This document shows positions 1,881-61,214 of a DNA stretch of 64,000 nt, piece by piece. Location of the stretch: positions 29,489 through 93,488 of the IMG/VR virus record IMGVR_UViG_3300028914_000001. One strand, written 5' to 3'. The DNA comes from a virus (taxonomy: Duplodnaviria > Heunggongvirae > Uroviricota > Caudoviricetes). The translations under genes and the position numbers were made by a program. Under the pieces are notes generated by a model. That model was not told the origin of the DNA, did no database searches, and saw nothing but the letters and a program-made list of their open reading frames with translations. Numbering within the stretch: position 1 is the stretch's first letter; every line of letters begins with the position of its first letter.

Positions 1881-1908
1881 GTTCAACTTAGGTTATCACC
1901 CCTGGCCT
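1881..1908. repeat. 28-bp exact direct repeat, copy 1 (GTTCAACTTAGGTTATCACCCCTGGCCT)
   Basis: Identical to 3456-3483; both copies lie just after terminators. Confidence 0.8.
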
Positions 1909-2509: not shown

Positions 2510-3385
2510 ATGTTCACTCAACAGCCGAAAGCAAAACCCGAAGCACTCACAAAGAAAATGCTCCTCGATGACAGGGCAGATTCCTTGGATTATATCAGGG
2601 AGAAACTTACCCTGAACGATTTGCGTACCGCCACGCAGAACTTGCAGGCGGTCTGTAACATCGTTCACCAAATCCTGTCAGCCCCGGCCCCGAACATTGT
2701 TGATGCCTACAAGATTGCAAACTTCGTCTCTACGGGATTCCACGACAACCTGGACATATTCCAGGAAATCAAACGTGACTCCATCGAATACCATAAAGGC
2801 CATATCTCTATCCCTAGACTTGTCAACCTCGACGATGCATACTCCTCCGAAAAAATCAGGGGTAACAAGTCGGAGTATCTAGTCAAGGCTATAGCCAATA
2901 TGCTCGAAATACTAGACCTGACAGCCCATATCCTGTCTAGGGCTAACATCACGTACTCCAACCATGTCCTGCTCGCCAAATCCATTCTAGAGAAGGCTCT
3001 CTACACATTTGGCCGTGATATCGTAGCATCGACCGATATGAACGACATCTGGCACAATCTCGTGCTGCCGAATAAGGATGCCATTACGGGACCCTCGGAT
3101 GCCTCTATAACCATGGGGGAAACCAAGTTCCATAACGGCCATACAATCTGCTTTACCCACGATGCCGTCCTAGCCGATGATACTGACCCCGCCGCCAAGA
3201 GAAGACTCAGGTACAACGGGATGCCCTTCTGCGCCCTGTTCTTCATCCCTATCAACGCATGGCTGTACATCGAACAGTCAGGCTTCTTCTCTGTCAAACC
3301 CACCAACCCTGCTGATAAACCCTCCTACGGCAAACTCGATAACAAAGACTTCGCTATGTCCCTCTACCGAGAACTCGTAGGATAA
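2510..3385 (+). CDS. hypothetical protein (291 aa)
   Basis: AAGGAGGA RBS; long ORF. Confidence 0.65.
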   Translation: MFTQQPKAKPEALTKKMLLDDRADSLDYIREKLTLNDLRTATQNLQAVCNIVHQILSAPAPNIVDAYKIANFVSTGFHDNLDIFQEIKRDSIEYHKGHISIPRLVNLDDAYSSEKIRGNKSEYLVKAIANMLEILDLTAHILSRANITYSNHVLLAKSILEKALYTFGRDIVASTDMNDIWHNLVLPNKDAITGPSDASITMGETKFHNGHTICFTHDAVLADDTDPAAKRRLRYNGMPFCALFFIPINAWLYIEQSGFFSVKPTNPADKPSYGKLDNKDFAMSLYRELVG

Positions 3386-3409: not shown

Positions 3410-3443
3410 AAAGGGGGCGCCTCTGGCGCTCCCTTTCTTGTCG
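3410..3443 (+). terminator. rho-independent terminator
   Basis: AAGGGGGCGCC/GGCGCTCCCTT hairpin followed by TTCTTGT. Confidence 0.55.
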
Positions 3444-3455
3444 TATCACCCATCT

Positions 3456-3483
3456 GTTCAACTTAGGTTATCACCCCTGGCCT
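3456..3483. repeat. 28-bp exact direct repeat, copy 2
   Basis: Identical to 1881-1908; the flanking about 20 bp are also similar. Confidence 0.8.
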
Positions 3484-3521
3484 GAACCCCCGCCGCAAAC
3501 CATACCACCCCCTCCAACCAA

Positions 3522-3586
3522 TCTATCAACACCTGTTGATATCTTGTTGATATCTTAGGCGCCCGTTATCAACACCTTATCAACAT
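3522..3586. repeat. cluster of DnaA-box-like TTATCAACA/TGTTGATA sites including the palindrome TATCAACACCTGTTGATA
   Basis: At least five copies within 65 bp, each an 8/9 match to the TTATCCACA DnaA box. Confidence 0.55.
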
Positions 3587-3720
3587 CGTTTCAACATGGG
3601 TTTCATCAAGGGTTTCAACAGGGGTTTCAACACCGTTTCAACTTCGTTTCAACCTGGCTCCAATCATACGGGTTTCATCTATGGGTTCAATCAGCCCGTT
3701 CCAATCACCAGTTCAAAACC
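3587..3720. repeat. iteron array of about 11 direct repeats of (G)GTTTCAAC at roughly 11-bp spacing
   Basis: Motif repeats with helical periodicity in a non-coding region. Confidence 0.6.
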
Positions 3721-3754
3721 CACGTCGCAAACCGTAGACGAGTGGTTAACATCC

Positions 3755-3847
3755 TGTTGATAACCCGATGAAATCCCGGTGTGTGAACCCGCTGTTGAAA
3801 GGGTGGTTGAAACCCCGTCGAAACCCTGTAGAAAACCTGTTGATAAC
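3755..3847. repeat. inverted iteron array (GTTGAAAC/GTTGATAAC), reverse complement of the 3587-3720 units
   Basis: Six copies facing the direct array. Confidence 0.55.
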
Positions 3848-3919
3848 TTGTGGAGATGAACGAGGGTTAGGTCAAACCCCATCTGTTTCAACCCCGGTTT
3901 CAAATATAGTTAATTAAAA

Positions 3920-4160
3920 CGGTTCCTAAAACTTCCATTTTCTGACAGCCTCGGGCCGCCGTTACGTCCTAAAAACGTGTCGTACCGGGTAAGAACCTAT
4001 GGCGAAATTGGCGATTTTAAGCCAATTTTAAAGCACGGGTTTGAAACGGCGGTCGAAAAAATTTTTGATTTTCTCAGGGTGTCAAAATATTTTTTAATTT
4101 TTCGTGAAAGCTTGGGGGGCAGCGGAGCTGCCCCCAGGGGCGGAAAATAATTTTTAATTT
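3920..4160 (+). ncRNA. candidate small non-coding transcript between a -10-like element and a GC hairpin
   Basis: TATAGT+TTAATTA at 3905-3918; no ORF longer than 10 aa; hairpin at 4114-4135; AAATTGGC/GCCAATTT inverted repeat at 4005-4028. Confidence 0.25.
4114..4160 (+). terminator. GC-rich hairpin GGGGGCAGC-GGA-GCTGCCCCC with a distal T-tract; weak terminator
   Basis: Stem of 9 bp; the U-tract is not adjacent to the stem. Confidence 0.3.
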
Positions 4161-4174
4161 TCTGTATTGTCCTA

Positions 4175-4203
4175 TTGACAGGCGGGGGGATATTTGTTAT
4201 ATT
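4175..4203 (+). promoter_or_regulatory. sigma70-type promoter
   Basis: TTGACA-N17-TATATT, then TTAATTA and an AGGAAGG RBS. Confidence 0.6.
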
Positions 4204-4235: not shown

Positions 4236-4463
4236 ATGGTAGATTTGAGACAGAGTGTAATCGACAGCCTGAATGTCCTGGGGGTTAAATTCGACGAGTC
4301 CAAGATAACGGTTTCAAGCACGGGGAAGATAGTGAGTCTTCCCGATACCCATATCAAGCTGATACGTCAGGAGGACCACTGGGGGATGTTTGACTGTAAG
4401 GCGGGTTCCTATGTAGGGGGTGGCGACGGCATTGACGAATGTTTGGAGGCGTTGTATGGTTAA
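4236..4463 (+). CDS. hypothetical protein (75 aa)
   Basis: AGGAAGG RBS; the stop overlaps the next start (ATGGTTAA). Confidence 0.5.
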   Translation: MVDLRQSVIDSLNVLGVKFDESKITVSSTGKIVSLPDTHIKLIRQEDHWGMFDCKAGSYVGGGDGIDECLEALYG

Positions 4464-4818
4464 GCCAACTGATAAAGAGATTAGTTCTTTTCGCAAGTAT
4501 TTGAAGAAGCAGGGGTTTATCGAGGACGGTTTATGCAAGGGAGTTTTCTACCTGTATATGAAGTACGGTTACCTCTGTGTTTCGATAGAGTATACCAAGA
4601 AGGGTGAGTTCAAGGAGGTGAGGGGTTTTCTTTCCCTCGGGTGGGAGAACAGCAAGTGCAGCCGTTTTTACATTCCTAACTACTATGAGTTGGGGAAGGG
4701 GATGAAGAAGGTGGAGTGTTCCTATGTGGACAGGGCGATAAGGTGCAGCAACATGGTCATGAACCAGATTGGGGAGTTACTGGATAACATTCCCAAGGCA
4801 GTCGGGATGATGGGTTGA
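4456..4818 (+). CDS. hypothetical protein (120 aa)
   Basis: GGAGG RBS; the ATG is inside the track ORF 4420-4818. Confidence 0.55.
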   Translation: MVKPTDKEISSFRKYLKKQGFIEDGLCKGVFYLYMKYGYLCVSIEYTKKGEFKEVRGFLSLGWENSKCSRFYIPNYYELGKGMKKVECSYVDRAIRCSNMVMNQIGELLDNIPKAVGMMG

Positions 4819-8551: not shown

Positions 8552-8580
8552 AATATACATAAATAAATCCCCTCTGTCAA
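8552..8580 (-). promoter_or_regulatory. sigma70-type promoter; the -35 forms the loop of the hairpin CCCCTC-TTGACA-GAGGGG
   Basis: TTGACA-N17-TATATT on the minus strand; stem at 8568-8587 followed by a U-rich tract. Confidence 0.6.
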
Positions 8581-10389: not shown

Positions 10390-10911
10390 TTAACCGAGGA
10401 GGATTTTCGTAAGGGCTTCGGTGAACTTCTTGTCGAGCTCTACTATGGCATCCGTCACGGTAAGCACAAGGTTCATCCTTGCACGGCAGACGCTGTTCAG
10501 GTCGTACGGGCTATTGTATCTACCGTCGGAATAGCGTTCGTATTGCTCGGCCTTGCAACGGAACGAGTCGGAGCCAGCGGCGAGCTTGTCGAGTGACTTT
10601 AATGTGGTCTTGATTGCTGCGACCTTCCTTATTTCCGTCGTGGTGACTAAGCCACTCTTGGCGAGGTCGATTAGTCTGTTCATGAAGTACAGCTTGATGT
10701 CACTCATGTCCTGCAGGTATGCGTTCTGCGCCTTCACGCCGATTTCCGCATCGAGGACCTCGAAGTCTTTCTCAGTCCATGTCTCGTCGAACTTAACCTG
10801 TCCGCACAGGGTTTCGAACTCGTATGCCTCATTCGGTGTCATCTTCTTGAGTTCAGGGTTCGTACGGAGGTATTTTTCGAGAAATTCACGGGTGTTCTTA
10901 AAGTAATCCAT
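10390..10911 (-). CDS. hypothetical protein (173 aa)
   Basis: TAAGGAAACC RBS. Confidence 0.6.
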   Translation of the reverse strand: MDYFKNTREFLEKYLRTNPELKKMTPNEAYEFETLCGQVKFDETWTEKDFEVLDAEIGVKAQNAYLQDMSDIKLYFMNRLIDLAKSGLVTTTEIRKVAAIKTTLKSLDKLAAGSDSFRCKAEQYERYSDGRYNSPYDLNSVCRARMNLVLTVTDAIVELDKKFTEALTKILLG

Positions 10912-10921
10912 TTTGGTTTCC

Positions 10922-11500
10922 TTATAGTTTCAATTTGCCTCTGATTGCCTCGCACCATTCCTTGCGAAGAACCTGGAGGAGGGTCTTCTGCATCTCTATG
11001 GTATCGGGGTCGTCGGCACAGAGGTATGTCGTTCCAGACCTGTCCTGGATGAAGATGCAGTCTTCAGCCTGCTTGATTGTGCTTTTCAGCAGAGTAGTCT
11101 TCCAAGCGTCGTCGAGAACGAGTGTCTTCTCGGTTTCCTTGGCTATTTTTCGAACAAAGTCGCTTCCTTCGGTTACGACGGTTTTCCAACCGAGGGTAGG
11201 GTAGTCAACCTTGGGCTTGAACACAGGCTGTTTCTTTTTGTAATAATCATGGAAGCAGCCCTTGTAGTTCTTCCTGCGGACACAATAGCGGTGGCAGTCC
11301 CACCTGTTGCCGTGAGTGTTTTCGCATCCCATGGCCTTGCATTCGTCGAAGGTATGCTTCGGGACGAAAGCGTAGGCTTCCTCTTTGAGTTCGTCTATCT
11401 GGGCAACCAGCTCGTCGATACGCTTGCTAATTGATTTCAGTTTAGCCCAGGTCTCGTCCGAGATGGGTTCCATCTGTGGCGGTTGCGGTTTCTTATCCAT
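10922..11500 (-). CDS. hypothetical protein, Cys/His-rich central region (192 aa)
   Basis: Track ORF with an ATG start. Confidence 0.55.
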   Translation of the reverse strand: MDKKPQPPQMEPISDETWAKLKSISKRIDELVAQIDELKEEAYAFVPKHTFDECKAMGCENTHGNRWDCHRYCVRRKNYKGCFHDYYKKKQPVFKPKVDYPTLGWKTVVTEGSDFVRKIAKETEKTLVLDDAWKTTLLKSTIKQAEDCIFIQDRSGTTYLCADDPDTIEMQKTLLQVLRKEWCEAIRGKLKL

Positions 11501-12350: not shown

Positions 12351-12390
12351 ACAAAAAACAATATAGCTAATTAAAGCTATATTGTCAAGG
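12351..12390. repeat. 38-bp duplicated promoter element containing the palindrome ATATAGCTAATTAAAGCTATAT (copy 1)
   Basis: Near-identical to 18431-18470. Confidence 0.8.
12360..12388 (-). promoter_or_regulatory. sigma70-type promoter with a palindromic, operator-like spacer
   Basis: TTGACA-N17-TATATT on the minus strand. Confidence 0.6.
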
Positions 12391-35071: not shown

Positions 35072-35145
35072 TAATCGGGCAGGTGGGATTCGAACCCACA
35101 CTGAAGGGGGTTTAAACCCCATTCCTCTACCAGTTGGGTTACTAC
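35072..35145 (-). tRNA. tRNA-like gene (74 nt, anticodon UAA, Leu-type reading) with a weak D-arm
   Basis: 7-bp acceptor stem with one G-U; canonical GTGGG-TTCGAAT-CCCAC T-arm; anticodon loop TTTAAAC; D-stem pairs poorly. Confidence 0.45.
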
Positions 35146-35160
35146 CCGAACCAATTCAAT

Positions 35161-42145: not shown

Positions 42146-42174
42146 AATATAGTTAAATTGTCCTGATTTGTCAA
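42146..42174 (-). promoter_or_regulatory. sigma70-type promoter
   Basis: TTGACA-N17-TATATT. Confidence 0.55.
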
Positions 42175-42175
42175 T

Positions 42176-42209
42176 TAAATAAAAGAATCGGGACTAAAAT
42201 GTCCCGATT
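42176..42209 (-). terminator. rho-independent terminator
   Basis: AATCGGGAC-taaaat-GTCCCGATT hairpin followed by TTTTATTTAA on the minus strand. Confidence 0.55.
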
Positions 42210-42229
42210 GTGTCCCGATTGTGTCCCGC
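42200..42229. repeat. tandem direct repeats TGTCCCGATTG x2 plus a partial third copy
   Basis: Overlaps the 3' arm of the terminator hairpin. Confidence 0.7.
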
Positions 42230-61104: not shown

Positions 61105-61186
61105 GTTAATCTAATTAGTTTCAATCTATCAGTAAAATACATTTTTTAACTTTTTACATTTTTTGTACTTTTTTTCAAAACCCTCT

Positions 61187-61214
61187 TGACAATCATGTTT
61201 TAATTATGTATATT
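61187..61214 (+). promoter_or_regulatory. sigma70-type promoter
   Basis: TTGACA-N16-TATATT with TTTTAATTATG in the spacer. Confidence 0.6.

What the first reader, a model, noticed from the sequence alone, without database searches (positions are those of the whole stretch)
3520..3910. Origin-like region: DnaA-box-like palindromes followed by opposed arrays of GTTTCAAC iterons
A non-coding stretch of about 400 bp contains TATCAACACCTGTTGATA and at least four more TTATCAACA/TGTTGATA copies, each an 8/9 match to the DnaA box. Next come about 11 direct (G)GTTTCAAC units at roughly 11-bp, helical-repeat spacing, and then about 6 copies in inverted orientation at 3755-3847. This is the classic architecture of an iteron-type replication origin or a partition/regulator binding array. 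No initiator (Rep) gene is recognisable nearby, so one of the adjacent unknown ORFs at 2510-3385 or 4236-4818 may be the iteron-binding protein. The same core unit GTTCAAC sits inside the 28-bp exact repeat at 1881-1908 and 3456-3483.
Basis: seen in the sequence. Interest (0 to 1): 0.7.

Follow-up and report, generated by a model that had tools for sequence, protein, structure and literature searches.

The report
Origin-like repeat array in giant phage
A conserved non-coding array of about 25 short protein-binding repeats in a roughly 419-kb rumen or gut phage sits exactly where the DNA strand-composition bias flips sign as it does at replication origins, which makes it a testable origin candidate for a group of giant phages whose replication start sites are unknown.

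Summary
Window 3523-3905 holds about 25 copies of one 9-bp unit family (TTATCAACA / GTTTCAACA), spaced 11-12 bp. The order is (> < <) GGCGCC (>> plus about 11 >) | (about 10 <) (>>).

The same layout is kept in all 13 relatives mapped unit by unit. The flanking protein is only about 50% identical in these relatives. The outer boxes are more conserved than the neighbouring gene, and the inner units turn over.

Bulk GC skew is confounded by codon bias. At four-fold degenerate sites, however, the + strand skew jumps from -0.54 to +0.22 in + strand genes and +0.60 in - strand genes across the array. It then decays over about 20 kb.

In relatives a second, related array (U) lies 38 kb upstream. It shows the same jump among co-oriented genes, with a monotonic decline in between, giving a sawtooth.

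The best reading, at about 0.5, is a replication origin, one of at least two. No unit meets the strict DnaA-box consensus, and no initiator gene is nearby. Host DnaA remains possible, because other phages mix TGTTGATA with canonical boxes.

The main rival is a T5-like terminal-repeat boundary or injection-stop element. Contig ends cluster at the right edges of both arrays, and the 38-kb block is a dense early-gene cassette.

The parts
1881..1908 (+). Second window copy of the 28-bp repeat. Its core is the 18-mer CAACTTAGGTTATCACCC, which holds two iteron-like units 11 bp apart. It lies about 80 nt upstream of the promoter TTGCCA-N17-TATATT (1963-1991) of gene 2060-2404.
3410..3439 (+). Intrinsic-terminator-type GC hairpin with a T run, closing gene 2510-3385.
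   Evidence: Seen in sequence. Conserved in relatives.
3456..3483 (+). Array-adjacent copy of the 28-bp repeat and 18-mer. It is the last of about 33 co-oriented copies in the 38-kb block in relatives.
3484..3520 (+). C-rich, G-poor spacer. The same kind of spacer follows every 18-mer copy.
3523..3553 (.). Box triplet CTATCAACA(+), TGTTGATAT(-), TGTTGATAT(-) at 11-bp spacing. The first two form the palindrome. Nearly invariant in relatives.
3558..3563 (.). GGCGCC element between the box groups. The same element follows the tandem TGTTGATA pair in array U.
3566..3585 (+). Two tandem TTATCAACA boxes, 2 nt apart, forming the outer anchor of the left arm.
3588..3716 (+). Left arm of about 11 forward GTTTCAAC(A)-type units at 11-13 bp, degenerating towards the centre. 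Copy number and sequence vary among relatives.
3717..3744 (.). Central spacer between the opposed arms. The composition switch is centred here.
3745..3857 (-). Right arm of about 10 reverse units. It includes TGTTGATAA at 3755 and 3838 and the terminal pair TGTTGATAAct TGTGGAGAT (3838-3857).
3813..3880 (.). Most conserved non-coding block, CCGTCGAAACCCTGTAGAAAACCTGTTGATAACyTGTGGAGA..ACGAGGGTTAGGT. It is 82-100% identical to all relatives. Independent contigs tend to end at or just after it.
3885..3905 (+). Two forward units abutting the AT-rich block.
3903..3945 (.). Conserved AT-rich block ATATAGTTAATTAAAA.... It is a local low-stability segment (-44.5 kcal per 40-mer, against a window mean of -53.6) and a candidate unwinding site or weak promoter.
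4055..4161 (.). Three AT-rich 18-mers AAAATAATTTTTRATTTT, at 4055, 4084 and 4144. The last one doubles as an UP-element-like tract of the 4175 promoter.
4114..4135 (.). GC hairpin with no T run. In relatives it is kept by compensatory replacement with a different hairpin.
4175..4203 (+). Consensus promoter TTGACA-N17-TATATT (with TG) driving genes 4236-4463 and 4456-4818. These are the only two + strand genes right of the array, and both have a G-rich coding strand.

Best explanation
The element is most likely a replication origin of a roughly 419-kb jumbo phage.

**Proposed mechanism.** An initiator binds the well-conserved outer 9-mers, TTATCAACA / TGTTGATAA. The initiator could be host DnaA reading a variant box, or an unidentified phage protein. 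It then oligomerises inward along the weaker GTTTCAAC-type units. These are spaced one helical turn apart and so lie on one face of the DNA. Two opposed protein filaments form on the two arms. An adjacent AT-rich segment opens, and forks leave in both directions.

**Context.** In relatives a related array (U) lies 38 kb upstream and behaves the same way. The phage would therefore have at least two fixed origins bracketing a dense early-gene block.

**What is shown and what is inferred.**
- Shown: the array, its helical phasing, its conservation with turnover of the inner units, and the orientation-independent strand-composition jump at both arrays.
- Inferred: the identity of the binding protein, the unwinding site, and bidirectional firing.
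For: 1. **Phased units.** There are about 25 units of one family at 11-12 bp, far above chance.
2. **Conservation.** The same layout occurs in all 13 relatives mapped unit by unit, although the flanking protein is only 46-64% identical in all but the two closest. The box blocks are 72-100% identical and the right block 82-100%, against 65% mean column identity for the neighbouring gene's DNA. The inner units are only 27-79% identical, which is the pattern expected of a binding array.
3. **Skew jump at D.**
   - In the window, + strand GC skew at four-fold sites is -0.54 in + genes left of the array.
   - It is +0.22 in the two + genes right of it (Fisher p = 3e-6).
   - It is +0.60 in the - genes right of it, decaying to about 0 (Spearman rho -0.63, p = 1e-9).
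   - AT skew also switches. One coding offset of about -0.2 plus a strand term jumping from -0.34 to +0.4 fits both gene orientations.
4. **Skew jump at U.**
   - In three relatives the jump at U occurs among purely co-oriented genes. GC4 goes from about -0.45 to between -0.15 and +0.02, and AT4 from +0.18 to -0.38 (p down to 2e-8).
   - In the two relatives that span both arrays, third-position GC skew declines monotonically from U to D (rho -0.68 and -0.75, p = 2e-9 and 7e-11). The result is a sawtooth like the skew N-domains between human origins, PMC2764438.
5. **Architecture.** Two opposed arrays of 9-mers 2-3 bp apart, anchored by better boxes, resemble the Left and Right DnaA-oligomerisation regions of E. 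coli oriC (PMC9198467).
6. **Other phages.** TGTTGATA pairs sit in phase with canonical TGTGGATAA/TGTGAATAA boxes, for example in L096 and L073. In two cases they sit next to replication genes: a Toprim-AAA_25 primase-helicase in L075 and a Rep in L074.
7. **AT-rich blocks.** Such blocks flank both arrays.
8. **Neighbouring gene.** An SSB gene abuts U.
Against: - No unit in 14 arrays meets TT(A/T)TNCACA. All carry A at position 6.
- No initiator was recognised within the window or next to U. The AAA+ gene beside U is MoxR/CbbQ-type.
- The AT-rich blocks are not the least stable DNA in the window, and the largest is about 200 bp from the last box.
- Transcription converges on the array, so forks leaving it would run head-on into genes.
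- The strand bias decays within about 20 kb instead of holding over a replichore.
- Short contigs from independent samples end at the right edge of D and start at the right edge of U. The U-to-D block is about 9% of the genome and is packed with consensus host-type promoters. Both features recall the T5 terminal repeat.
- Forks primed from fixed DNA ends could also give the sawtooth.
Confidence: 0.5

Rival explanations
1. T5-like terminal-repeat boundary. The 38-kb U-to-D block would be a long direct terminal repeat, or first-step-transfer segment, carrying pre-early genes. Array D would mark its distal end. There it would be bound by host DnaA or by terminase, to pause DNA entry or to direct end formation. 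Forks primed from the fixed ends would produce the skew jumps.
For: - T5 Repeat Region 3 is an untranslated region more conserved than its ORFs. It lies at the right end of the LTR and carries tandem DnaA/DnaA* box pairs that include TTATCAACA (10.1101/866236).
- T5 has TGTTGATAAgtcTGTGGATAA. The window has TGTTGATAActTGTGGAGAT, invariant in relatives.
- The block is about 9% of 419 kb, compared with 8% in T5.
- The block holds 33 modules of terminator, 18-mer and consensus promoter, all co-oriented.
- U and D share a TGTTGATA pair plus GGCGCC in the same orientation.
- Five of 7 short contigs end 474-527 nt after the 291-aa gene, and three more end at +492 to +545. Three contigs start 121-241 nt before the first block gene.
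Against: - The contig ends scatter over about 55 nt rather than falling on one nucleotide.
- Large contigs run straight through both arrays.
- The 419-kb contig is circular by a 107-bp overlap located elsewhere.
- Long 11-bp-phased opposed arms are not a T5 feature.
- Single-strand exposure by end resection predicts the opposite skew sign (inference).
- The near-symmetric jump needs forks leaving D in both directions.
- The T5 iss function is itself only a hypothesis.
Confidence: 0.2
2. Regulatory hub. A phage-encoded or host DNA-binding protein recognises the TCAAC-type units, including the two inside each 18-mer upstream of every promoter of the early block. Arrays U and D would be nucleation, boundary or titration sites that switch the whole 38-kb block on or off.
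For: - The 18-mer holds two iteron-like units 11 bp apart. It lies about 95 nt upstream of the -35 of each block promoter, and all of its roughly 33 copies are on one strand and only inside the block.
- 18-mer-like copies replace iterons inside the array in L003.
- Array D lies between a terminator and a strong promoter.
Against: - Regulation alone does not explain strand-composition jumps that hold for both gene orientations.
- About 25 sites in two opposed arms is far more than known operators need.
- No regulator gene was identified nearby.
- This role could coexist with an origin role, since DnaA itself does both.
Confidence: 0.15
3. Partition centromere of a plasmid-like prophage state, in which phased repeats are wrapped by a ParR/TubR-type adaptor.
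For: The 11-12-bp phased direct repeats in two clusters resemble R1 parC and pBtoxis tubC (own knowledge).
Against: - No ParA, ParM, TubZ or adaptor gene was found among the neighbours or in the window ORFs scanned.
- A centromere predicts no skew jump.
- There are two arrays 38 kb apart.
Confidence: 0.04
4. Not a DNA site at all, but a structured non-coding RNA or chance low-complexity sequence.
For: A promoter-like TATAGT at 3906 and a conserved 230-nt stretch follow the array.
Against: - There is no Rfam match.
- No covarying structure exists apart from one hairpin.
- Unit enrichment is far above shuffles.
- Unit orientation and phasing are conserved while the sequence turns over.
Confidence: 0.01

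Closest known systems
E. coli oriC DnaA-oligomerisation region (Left and Right DOR), PMC9198467
   Same: Both have two oppositely oriented arrays of 9-mers separated by 2-3 bp. Both are anchored by better-matching outer boxes, with weaker boxes inward. Both have AT-rich repeats nearby and a strand-composition switch.
   Different: - No unit here meets TT(A/T)TNCACA.
- The arms converge (>>> <<<), whereas in oriC they diverge.
- There are 10-15 units per arm instead of about 5.
- The AT-rich repeats are not directly next to the anchor box.
- It lies in a phage, and there are at least two copies per genome.
Phage T5 Repeat Region 3 / injection stop signal (10.1101/866236; AY587007 9194-10409)
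   Same: Both are large untranslated regions, more conserved than the neighbouring ORFs, at the end of a block of early genes with strong host-type promoters. Both carry tandem pairs of DnaA-like boxes that include TGTTGATAA followed by TGTGGA-type boxes.
   Different: - T5 has 8 boxes in 4 pairs with 3-nt gaps and mixes in canonical boxes.
- T5 has no long 11-bp-phased arms.
- Its other repeats (DRC, DRD) are unrelated.
- The terminal-repeat status of the block here is unknown.
Iteron-type origins of phages and plasmids (lambda ori, P1 oriR, P4 ori/crr; own knowledge)
   Same: Short repeated binding sites lie in helical phase, in direct and inverted orientation, beside AT-rich DNA. P4 has two separated clusters (ori and crr) of one octamer, as U and D do here.
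   Different: No cognate initiator gene lies next to either array. The units are shorter and far more numerous than in most iteron origins. The two clusters are 38 kb apart.
Skew N-domains between mammalian replication origins (PMC2764438, PMC3320577)
   Same: The strand skew jumps upward at fixed sites and declines roughly linearly between them.
   Different: The scale is tens of kb rather than about a megabase. The genome is a phage genome. The pattern was inferred from four-fold sites in three genomes, not genome-wide.
Type II and III partition centromeres (R1 parC, pBtoxis tubC; own knowledge)
   Same: Both have clusters of 11-12-bp phased repeats.
   Different: No partition genes were found, and a centromere does not predict a skew jump.

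Membership tests
DnaA-box cluster (oriC-type) | 9-mers matching the DnaA-box consensus TT(A/T)TNCACA | tested here: not met
   There are 0 matches in the D arrays of the window and 13 relatives. All boxes carry A at position 6, and 2-4 per array are TTATCAACA.
DnaA-box cluster (oriC-type) | Arrays of 9-mers 2-3 bp apart, in two oppositely oriented groups | tested here: met
   Unit spacing is 11 bp in 90 cases and 12 bp in 30. The > arm followed by the < arm is present in all 13 relatives.
DnaA-box cluster (oriC-type) | Adjacent AT-rich unwinding element | tested here: inconclusive
   AT-rich blocks at 3903-3945 and 4055-4161 are about 2.5 sd less stable than average. They are not extreme, and the second is about 200 bp away.
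DnaA-box cluster (oriC-type) | Bound by DnaA | not testable with these tools
   The only evidence is indirect. In other phage contigs TGTTGATA sits in phase with canonical DnaA boxes.
Replication origin (any type) | Strand-composition switch with origin polarity, independent of gene orientation | tested here: met
   Four-fold-site GC and AT skew jump at D and at U. Co-oriented genes were tested by Fisher tests, and - strand genes agree after a single coding offset.
Iteron-type origin | Three or more repeats of one unit in helical phase | tested here: met
Iteron-type origin | Cognate initiator (Rep) gene next to the iterons | tested here: not met
   - The neighbouring ORFs have no Pfam or PHROG Rep or HTH hit.
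- The AAA+ gene next to U is MoxR-type.
Iteron-type origin | Supports autonomous replication | not testable with these tools
   This needs cloning and replication assays.
T5-type iss / Repeat Region 3 | Untranslated repeat region more conserved than the surrounding ORFs, beside early genes | tested here: met
T5-type iss / Repeat Region 3 | Tandem pairs of DnaA or variant boxes 2-3 nt apart | tested here: met
   Pairs lie at 3534/3545, 3566/3577 and 3838/3849, each with a 2-nt gap. T5 has a 3-nt gap.
T5-type iss / Repeat Region 3 | Lies inside a long terminal repeat, near its inner boundary | not testable with these tools
   There are only hints. Contig ends cluster at the right edges of D and U. 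Read coverage is needed.
T5-type iss / Repeat Region 3 | A1/A2-type second-step-transfer genes in the block | not tested
   The block genes of the relatives were not compared with T5 A1, A2 or dmp.
Partition centromere | Adjacent partition NTPase and adaptor genes | tested here: not met
   None was found among the neighbours or the 40 window ORFs scanned.
pac/cos packaging site | Next to terminase genes, or at mapped DNA ends | tested here: inconclusive
   No terminase was found among the window ORFs scanned. The contig-end clustering is suggestive but not precise.

The most novel reading that the evidence does not exclude
A roughly 419-kb phage genome is replicated from several fixed origins, so that it carries a eukaryote-like sawtooth (N-domain) strand bias. 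Two of these origins are arrays of variant DnaA boxes that bracket a 38-kb cassette of about 75 early genes. They may double as T5-like boundaries of a first-entering or terminally repeated segment. One host-DnaA-binding element would then couple DNA entry, early-gene control and replication start.
Probability: 0.2. Interest if true: 0.85.

Novelty: new variant of a known kind. Interest (0 to 1): 0.68.

Why it matters
To my knowledge, replication start sites of jumbo phages are essentially unmapped, and one literature search here found no report tying a jumbo phage to an origin defined by DnaA boxes and skew.

This work gives two precisely delimited, conserved candidate origins. It also gives a sequence-only signal, four-fold-site skew jumps that hold for both gene orientations, which can be checked at once with read-depth data.

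If the arrays are origins, a phage would show multi-origin, sawtooth skew of the kind so far described for eukaryotic chromosomes.

If they are instead terminal-repeat or injection-stop boundaries, T5's unusual two-step entry strategy would extend to an unrelated giant phage.

Either way, the TGTTGATA variant box appears in more than 119 stretches of viral contigs, part of them one conserved coding sequence. It is often in phase with canonical DnaA boxes. That points to a widespread and little-studied use of DnaA-like sites by phages.

Tried and rejected
1. **Known-phage identity.** Megablast and tblastn against GenBank phages found nothing.
2. **Neighbouring ORFs as initiator.**
   - Pfam and PHROGs gave nothing for the six flanking ORFs.
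   - A PDB sequence profile search gave nothing.
3. **AAA+ gene beside array U as a DnaA/Orc-like initiator.** It is MoxR/CbbQ/NorQ-type.
4. **Replication module left of U.** Only SSB was found.
5. **Bulk GC skew as evidence.**
   - The switch is conserved.
   - Per-gene analysis showed that nearly all genes prefer C3 over G3 on their coding strand, so the bulk signal is mostly a strand-of-gene effect.
   - It was replaced by four-fold-site tests within one gene orientation.
6. **ncRNA in 3905-4140.** There is no Rfam hit and no covariation except one hairpin. The 10-codon micro-ORF at 4000 is not conserved as coding, by inspection.
7. **DUE.** The AT-rich blocks are only moderately unstable.
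8. **Host identity.** The only genome hit is a contig binned in a Bacteroidaceae MAG. That conflicts with the TTGACA/TATATT promoters and strong Shine-Dalgarno sites, so the host is left open.
9. **End-resection model for the skew.** It predicts the wrong sign (inference).
10. **Literature searches for the motifs.** These gave only the T5 paper and primer lists.

Full report
**What is there**

All the repeats belong to one 9-bp family with the core TCAAC: TTATCAACA-type boxes and GTTTCAAC(A)-type units.

A position-weight scan gives the following order:
- CTATCAACA(+) at 3523
- TGTTGATAT(-) at 3534 and 3545
- GGCGCC at 3558
- TTATCAACA(+) at 3566 and 3577
- six strong forward units from 3588 to 3646, then five degenerate ones to 3716
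- a 28-nt spacer
- about ten reverse units from 3745 to 3857, including TGTTGATAA at 3755 and 3838 and a terminal TGTGGAGAT
- two forward units at 3885 and 3897

Enrichment:
- Seven of the 11 exact GTTTCAAC in the 64-kb window are in the array, against 3.2 expected in the whole window.
- Seven of the 14 TATCAACA are in the array.
- Tandem Repeats Finder reports periods of 11-12.
- The 28-bp repeat at 1881 and 3456 is exact and unique in the window.

**Genome context**

The window has no close relative among GenBank phages. It carries RtcB, NadR with PnuC, QueC-like, radical-SAM, ClpX, glycosyltransferase and other auxiliary genes typical of very large phages.

The 291-aa gene left of the array has 64 homologues, on contigs of up to about 419 kb from rumen and gut metagenomes. 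One 419,423-bp contig closes on itself with a 107-bp overlap.

The window contains 20 perfect TTGACA-N16-18-TATATT promoters, against 0.02 expected. Each lies 30-45 nt upstream of a Shine-Dalgarno site and a start codon.

**Conservation**

Exact copies of both motifs lie in the intergenic stretch downstream of the homologous gene in all 22 relatives scanned. The 11 aligned show the full ~900-bp region in the same order.

Across 13 relatives mapped unit by unit the grammar (>) < < gap > > > ... < < < ... (>) is kept. Each array has 13-26 units, against about 2 expected.

Identity to the window, by segment:

| Segment | Identity to window |
|---|---|
| Left box block | 72-100% |
| Right block 3813-3880 | 82-100% |
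| Inner arms | 27-79% |
| DNA of the neighbouring gene | 65% mean column identity |

Fixed anchors with turning-over inner repeats are what a cooperative protein-binding array looks like.

**Skew**

The bulk GC skew flips at the array in the window and in all relatives. I do not count this as evidence. Nearly every gene prefers C over G at third positions of its own coding strand, and the genes left of the array are on the + strand while those right of 5 kb are on the - strand.

The informative test uses four-fold degenerate sites and compares genes of the same orientation. Window results:
- The + strand genes left of the array have GC4 skew -0.54 (252 sites).
- The two + strand genes right of it have +0.22 (Fisher p = 3e-6).
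- The - strand genes of the next 6 kb give +0.60 on the + strand. This falls to +0.38, +0.21, +0.12 and about 0 with distance (rho -0.63, p = 1e-9).
- AT4 skew moves the opposite way.

One coding-strand offset of about -0.2, plus a strand term that jumps from about -0.34 to +0.4 at the array, reproduces both gene orientations. A transcription-driven bias cannot do this, because the - strand genes right of the array show the opposite of the transcription signature on their own coding strand.

**A second array, and a sawtooth**

The 18-mer core of the 28-bp repeat, CAACTTRGGTTATCACCC, occurs 33 times in the 419-kb relative. All copies are on one strand, and all lie within a 38-kb block of co-oriented small genes that ends at this array.

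Each copy sits in a fixed module:
1. terminator
2. 18-mer
3. C-rich spacer
4. TGTAAA-N-TTTACA palindrome
5. A-tract
6. consensus promoter

At the upstream end of the block lies a second conserved non-coding element, U. It consists of AT-rich tracts, TGTTGATAWCC TGTTGATAWCT TGTGTGTTTCA TGTTGAAAC at 11-bp spacing, a GGCGCC element, GTCCCGA repeats, and 3-9 GGTTGGAAACCCCT iterons.

The skew behaves as follows:
- Among co-oriented + strand genes, GC4 jumps at U from about -0.45 to between -0.15 and +0.02.
- AT4 jumps there from +0.18 to about -0.38, in three relatives (p down to 2e-8).
- Between U and D, third-position GC skew falls monotonically from about 0 to -0.42 or -0.45 (rho -0.68 and -0.75, p = 2e-9 and 7e-11).
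- It then jumps again at D.

This sawtooth has the polarity of replication origins at both arrays. It is the shape described for skew N-domains between human origins (PMC2764438).

**How it most likely works**

The architecture parallels the DnaA-oligomerisation region of E. coli oriC (PMC9198467). It has better-conserved outer boxes, weaker units one helical turn apart extending inward, two opposed arms, and AT-rich blocks nearby.

I therefore favour an origin at which an initiator nucleates on the outer boxes, spreads along one face of the helix on both arms, and opens flanking AT-rich DNA.

The binder is unknown:
- *Against canonical DnaA.* None of the boxes in 14 arrays meets TT(A/T)TNCACA.
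- *For DnaA.* The tandem pair TGTTGATAWCYTGTTGATA occurs in more than 119 stretches of viral contigs, far above a rough chance estimate of a few, though part of this is one conserved coding sequence. In non-coding cases it sits in 11-bp phase with canonical TGTGGATAA, TGTGAATAA or TTATCCACA boxes. Twenty-seven of 121 hits have a canonical box within 150 nt. In two of the nine loci whose neighbouring ORFs I listed, it lies beside a primase-helicase or a Rep gene.
- *No local candidate.* The flanking ORFs have no family hits. The 291-aa protein has a confident model with no structural relative. The AAA+ gene beside U is MoxR-type.

**Why I am not more confident**

- Genes converge on the array.
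- The AT-rich blocks are only moderately unstable.
- The strand bias decays over about 20 kb rather than holding.
- There is a coherent rival, set out below.

Phage T5 has a conserved untranslated repeat region at the inner end of its 10-kb terminal repeat. It follows pre-early genes with strong host promoters, and it carries tandem DnaA and variant box pairs, including TGTTGATAAgtcTGTGGATAA (10.1101/866236). Here TGTTGATAAc(t/c)TGTGGAGA is invariant, and the U-to-D block is 9% of the genome.

Contig ends also cluster:
- Five of 7 short contigs carrying one homologue end 474-527 nt after the gene.
- Three others end at +492 to +545, in the 3' part of array D or just past it.
- Three short contigs start 121-241 nt before the first gene of the block, at the right edge of U.

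This could reflect physical ends, a nick, or two-fold coverage of a terminal repeat. It could equally reflect strain polymorphism next to an invariant block. The ends scatter over about 55 nt, and large contigs read straight through.

Forks primed from fixed ends could give similar jumps. The near-symmetric amplitude at D argues for forks leaving in both directions, and simple end resection predicts the wrong sign. A regulatory role through the 18-mers may coexist with either reading.

**Verdict**

- That this is a functional, conserved protein-binding array is close to certain.
- A replication origin is the best-supported function, at about 0.5.
- A T5-like boundary element is next, at about 0.2.
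- A regulatory hub stands at about 0.15.

It is a new variant of a known kind. Its value lies in being directly testable with read-depth data, and in pointing to multi-origin replication, or to T5-like staged entry, in a giant phage.

Noticed in passing
window, 20 sites (e.g. 4175-4203, 8552-8580, 12360-12388, 61186-61214): There are twenty perfect TTGACA-N16-18-TATATT promoters, against 0.02 expected. They share a spacer motif TTTAATTA and a C-rich run before the -35. Each lies 30-45 nt upstream of a strong Shine-Dalgarno site and ATG. The whole 64 kb looks transcribed by a sigma-70-type polymerase from one very strict promoter class.
   Followed up: partly
window 1884-1901 and 3459-3476; relatives L025, L014, L005, L004; contig IMGVR_UViG_3300021400_000141 at 385.7-419.4 kb and 0.5-4.5 kb: The invariant 18-mer CAACTTRGGTTATCACCC occurs about 33 times. 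All copies are on one strand and only within a 38-kb block. Each copy sits in the same module: terminator, 18-mer, C-rich spacer, TGTAAA-N-TTTACA palindrome, A-tract, promoter. Its role is open. It could be an operator, a second promoter class or a polar signal.
   Followed up: partly
relatives: L048 ~10,560-11,000; L049, L050, L064, L067 (array U): A second conserved non-coding array lies 38 kb upstream of the finding. It has tandem TGTTGATA boxes, GGCGCC, GTCCCGA repeats and 3-9 GGTTGGAAACCCCT iterons. In one clade it sits between an SSB gene and a MoxR-type AAA+ gene. In another it sits in a divergent intergenic region.
   Followed up: yes
L057-L063, L011, L015, L017 (ends); L066, L068, L069 (starts): Short contigs from independent samples end within about 55-70 nt in the 3' part of array D or just past it, and start within about 120 nt at the right edge of array U. 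Their other ends scatter. This may indicate physical DNA ends, a nick or a coverage step.
   Followed up: partly
window 4236-4818: The two small + strand genes right of the array are the only adjacent genes with a G-rich coding strand (GC3 skew +0.17 and +0.26). L003 lacks the second and L004 the first. In L016 and L019 the promoter and the start of the first gene are replaced by unrelated sequence after the GC hairpin.
   Followed up: partly
window 4114-4135: A GC hairpin without a T run is conserved. In L006 and in L016/L019 it is replaced by a different hairpin of the same shape. The structure rather than the sequence is therefore selected. Its function is unknown.
   Followed up: partly
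L003 5140-5200: Two partial copies of the 18-mer module (GGATTTCCAACTTGGGTTATTG...) are inserted inside the forward iteron arm. This suggests that the two repeat kinds recombine or are interchangeable.
   Followed up: no
window 42200-42228; array U in relatives: The exact tandem repeat TGTCCCGATTG (2.6 copies) lies just upstream of the promoter at 42146-42174. The same GTCCCGA motif is repeated inside array U. It may be a second operator family.
   Followed up: no
[not shown]
   Followed up: yes
L025 (JAFXNA010000009.1): The only hit in the species-genome collection is a 101-kb contig binned in a Bacteroidaceae MAG from sheep reticulum. That label sits badly with the TTGACA/TATATT promoters and the strong Shine-Dalgarno sites, so the host is unresolved.
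   Followed up: no
viral contigs L073, L090, L094, L096, L098 and others: Many unrelated viral contigs carry 11-bp-phased runs that mix TGTTGATA with canonical DnaA boxes. An example is L096, with nine boxes in a row. Some lie next to primase-helicase or Rep genes and some next to terminase genes. This looks like a widespread phage use of DnaA-like sites.
   Followed up: partly
window 35074-35149: tRNA-Leu(TAA) lies on the - strand between the RtcB region and the NadR/PnuC genes.
   Followed up: no
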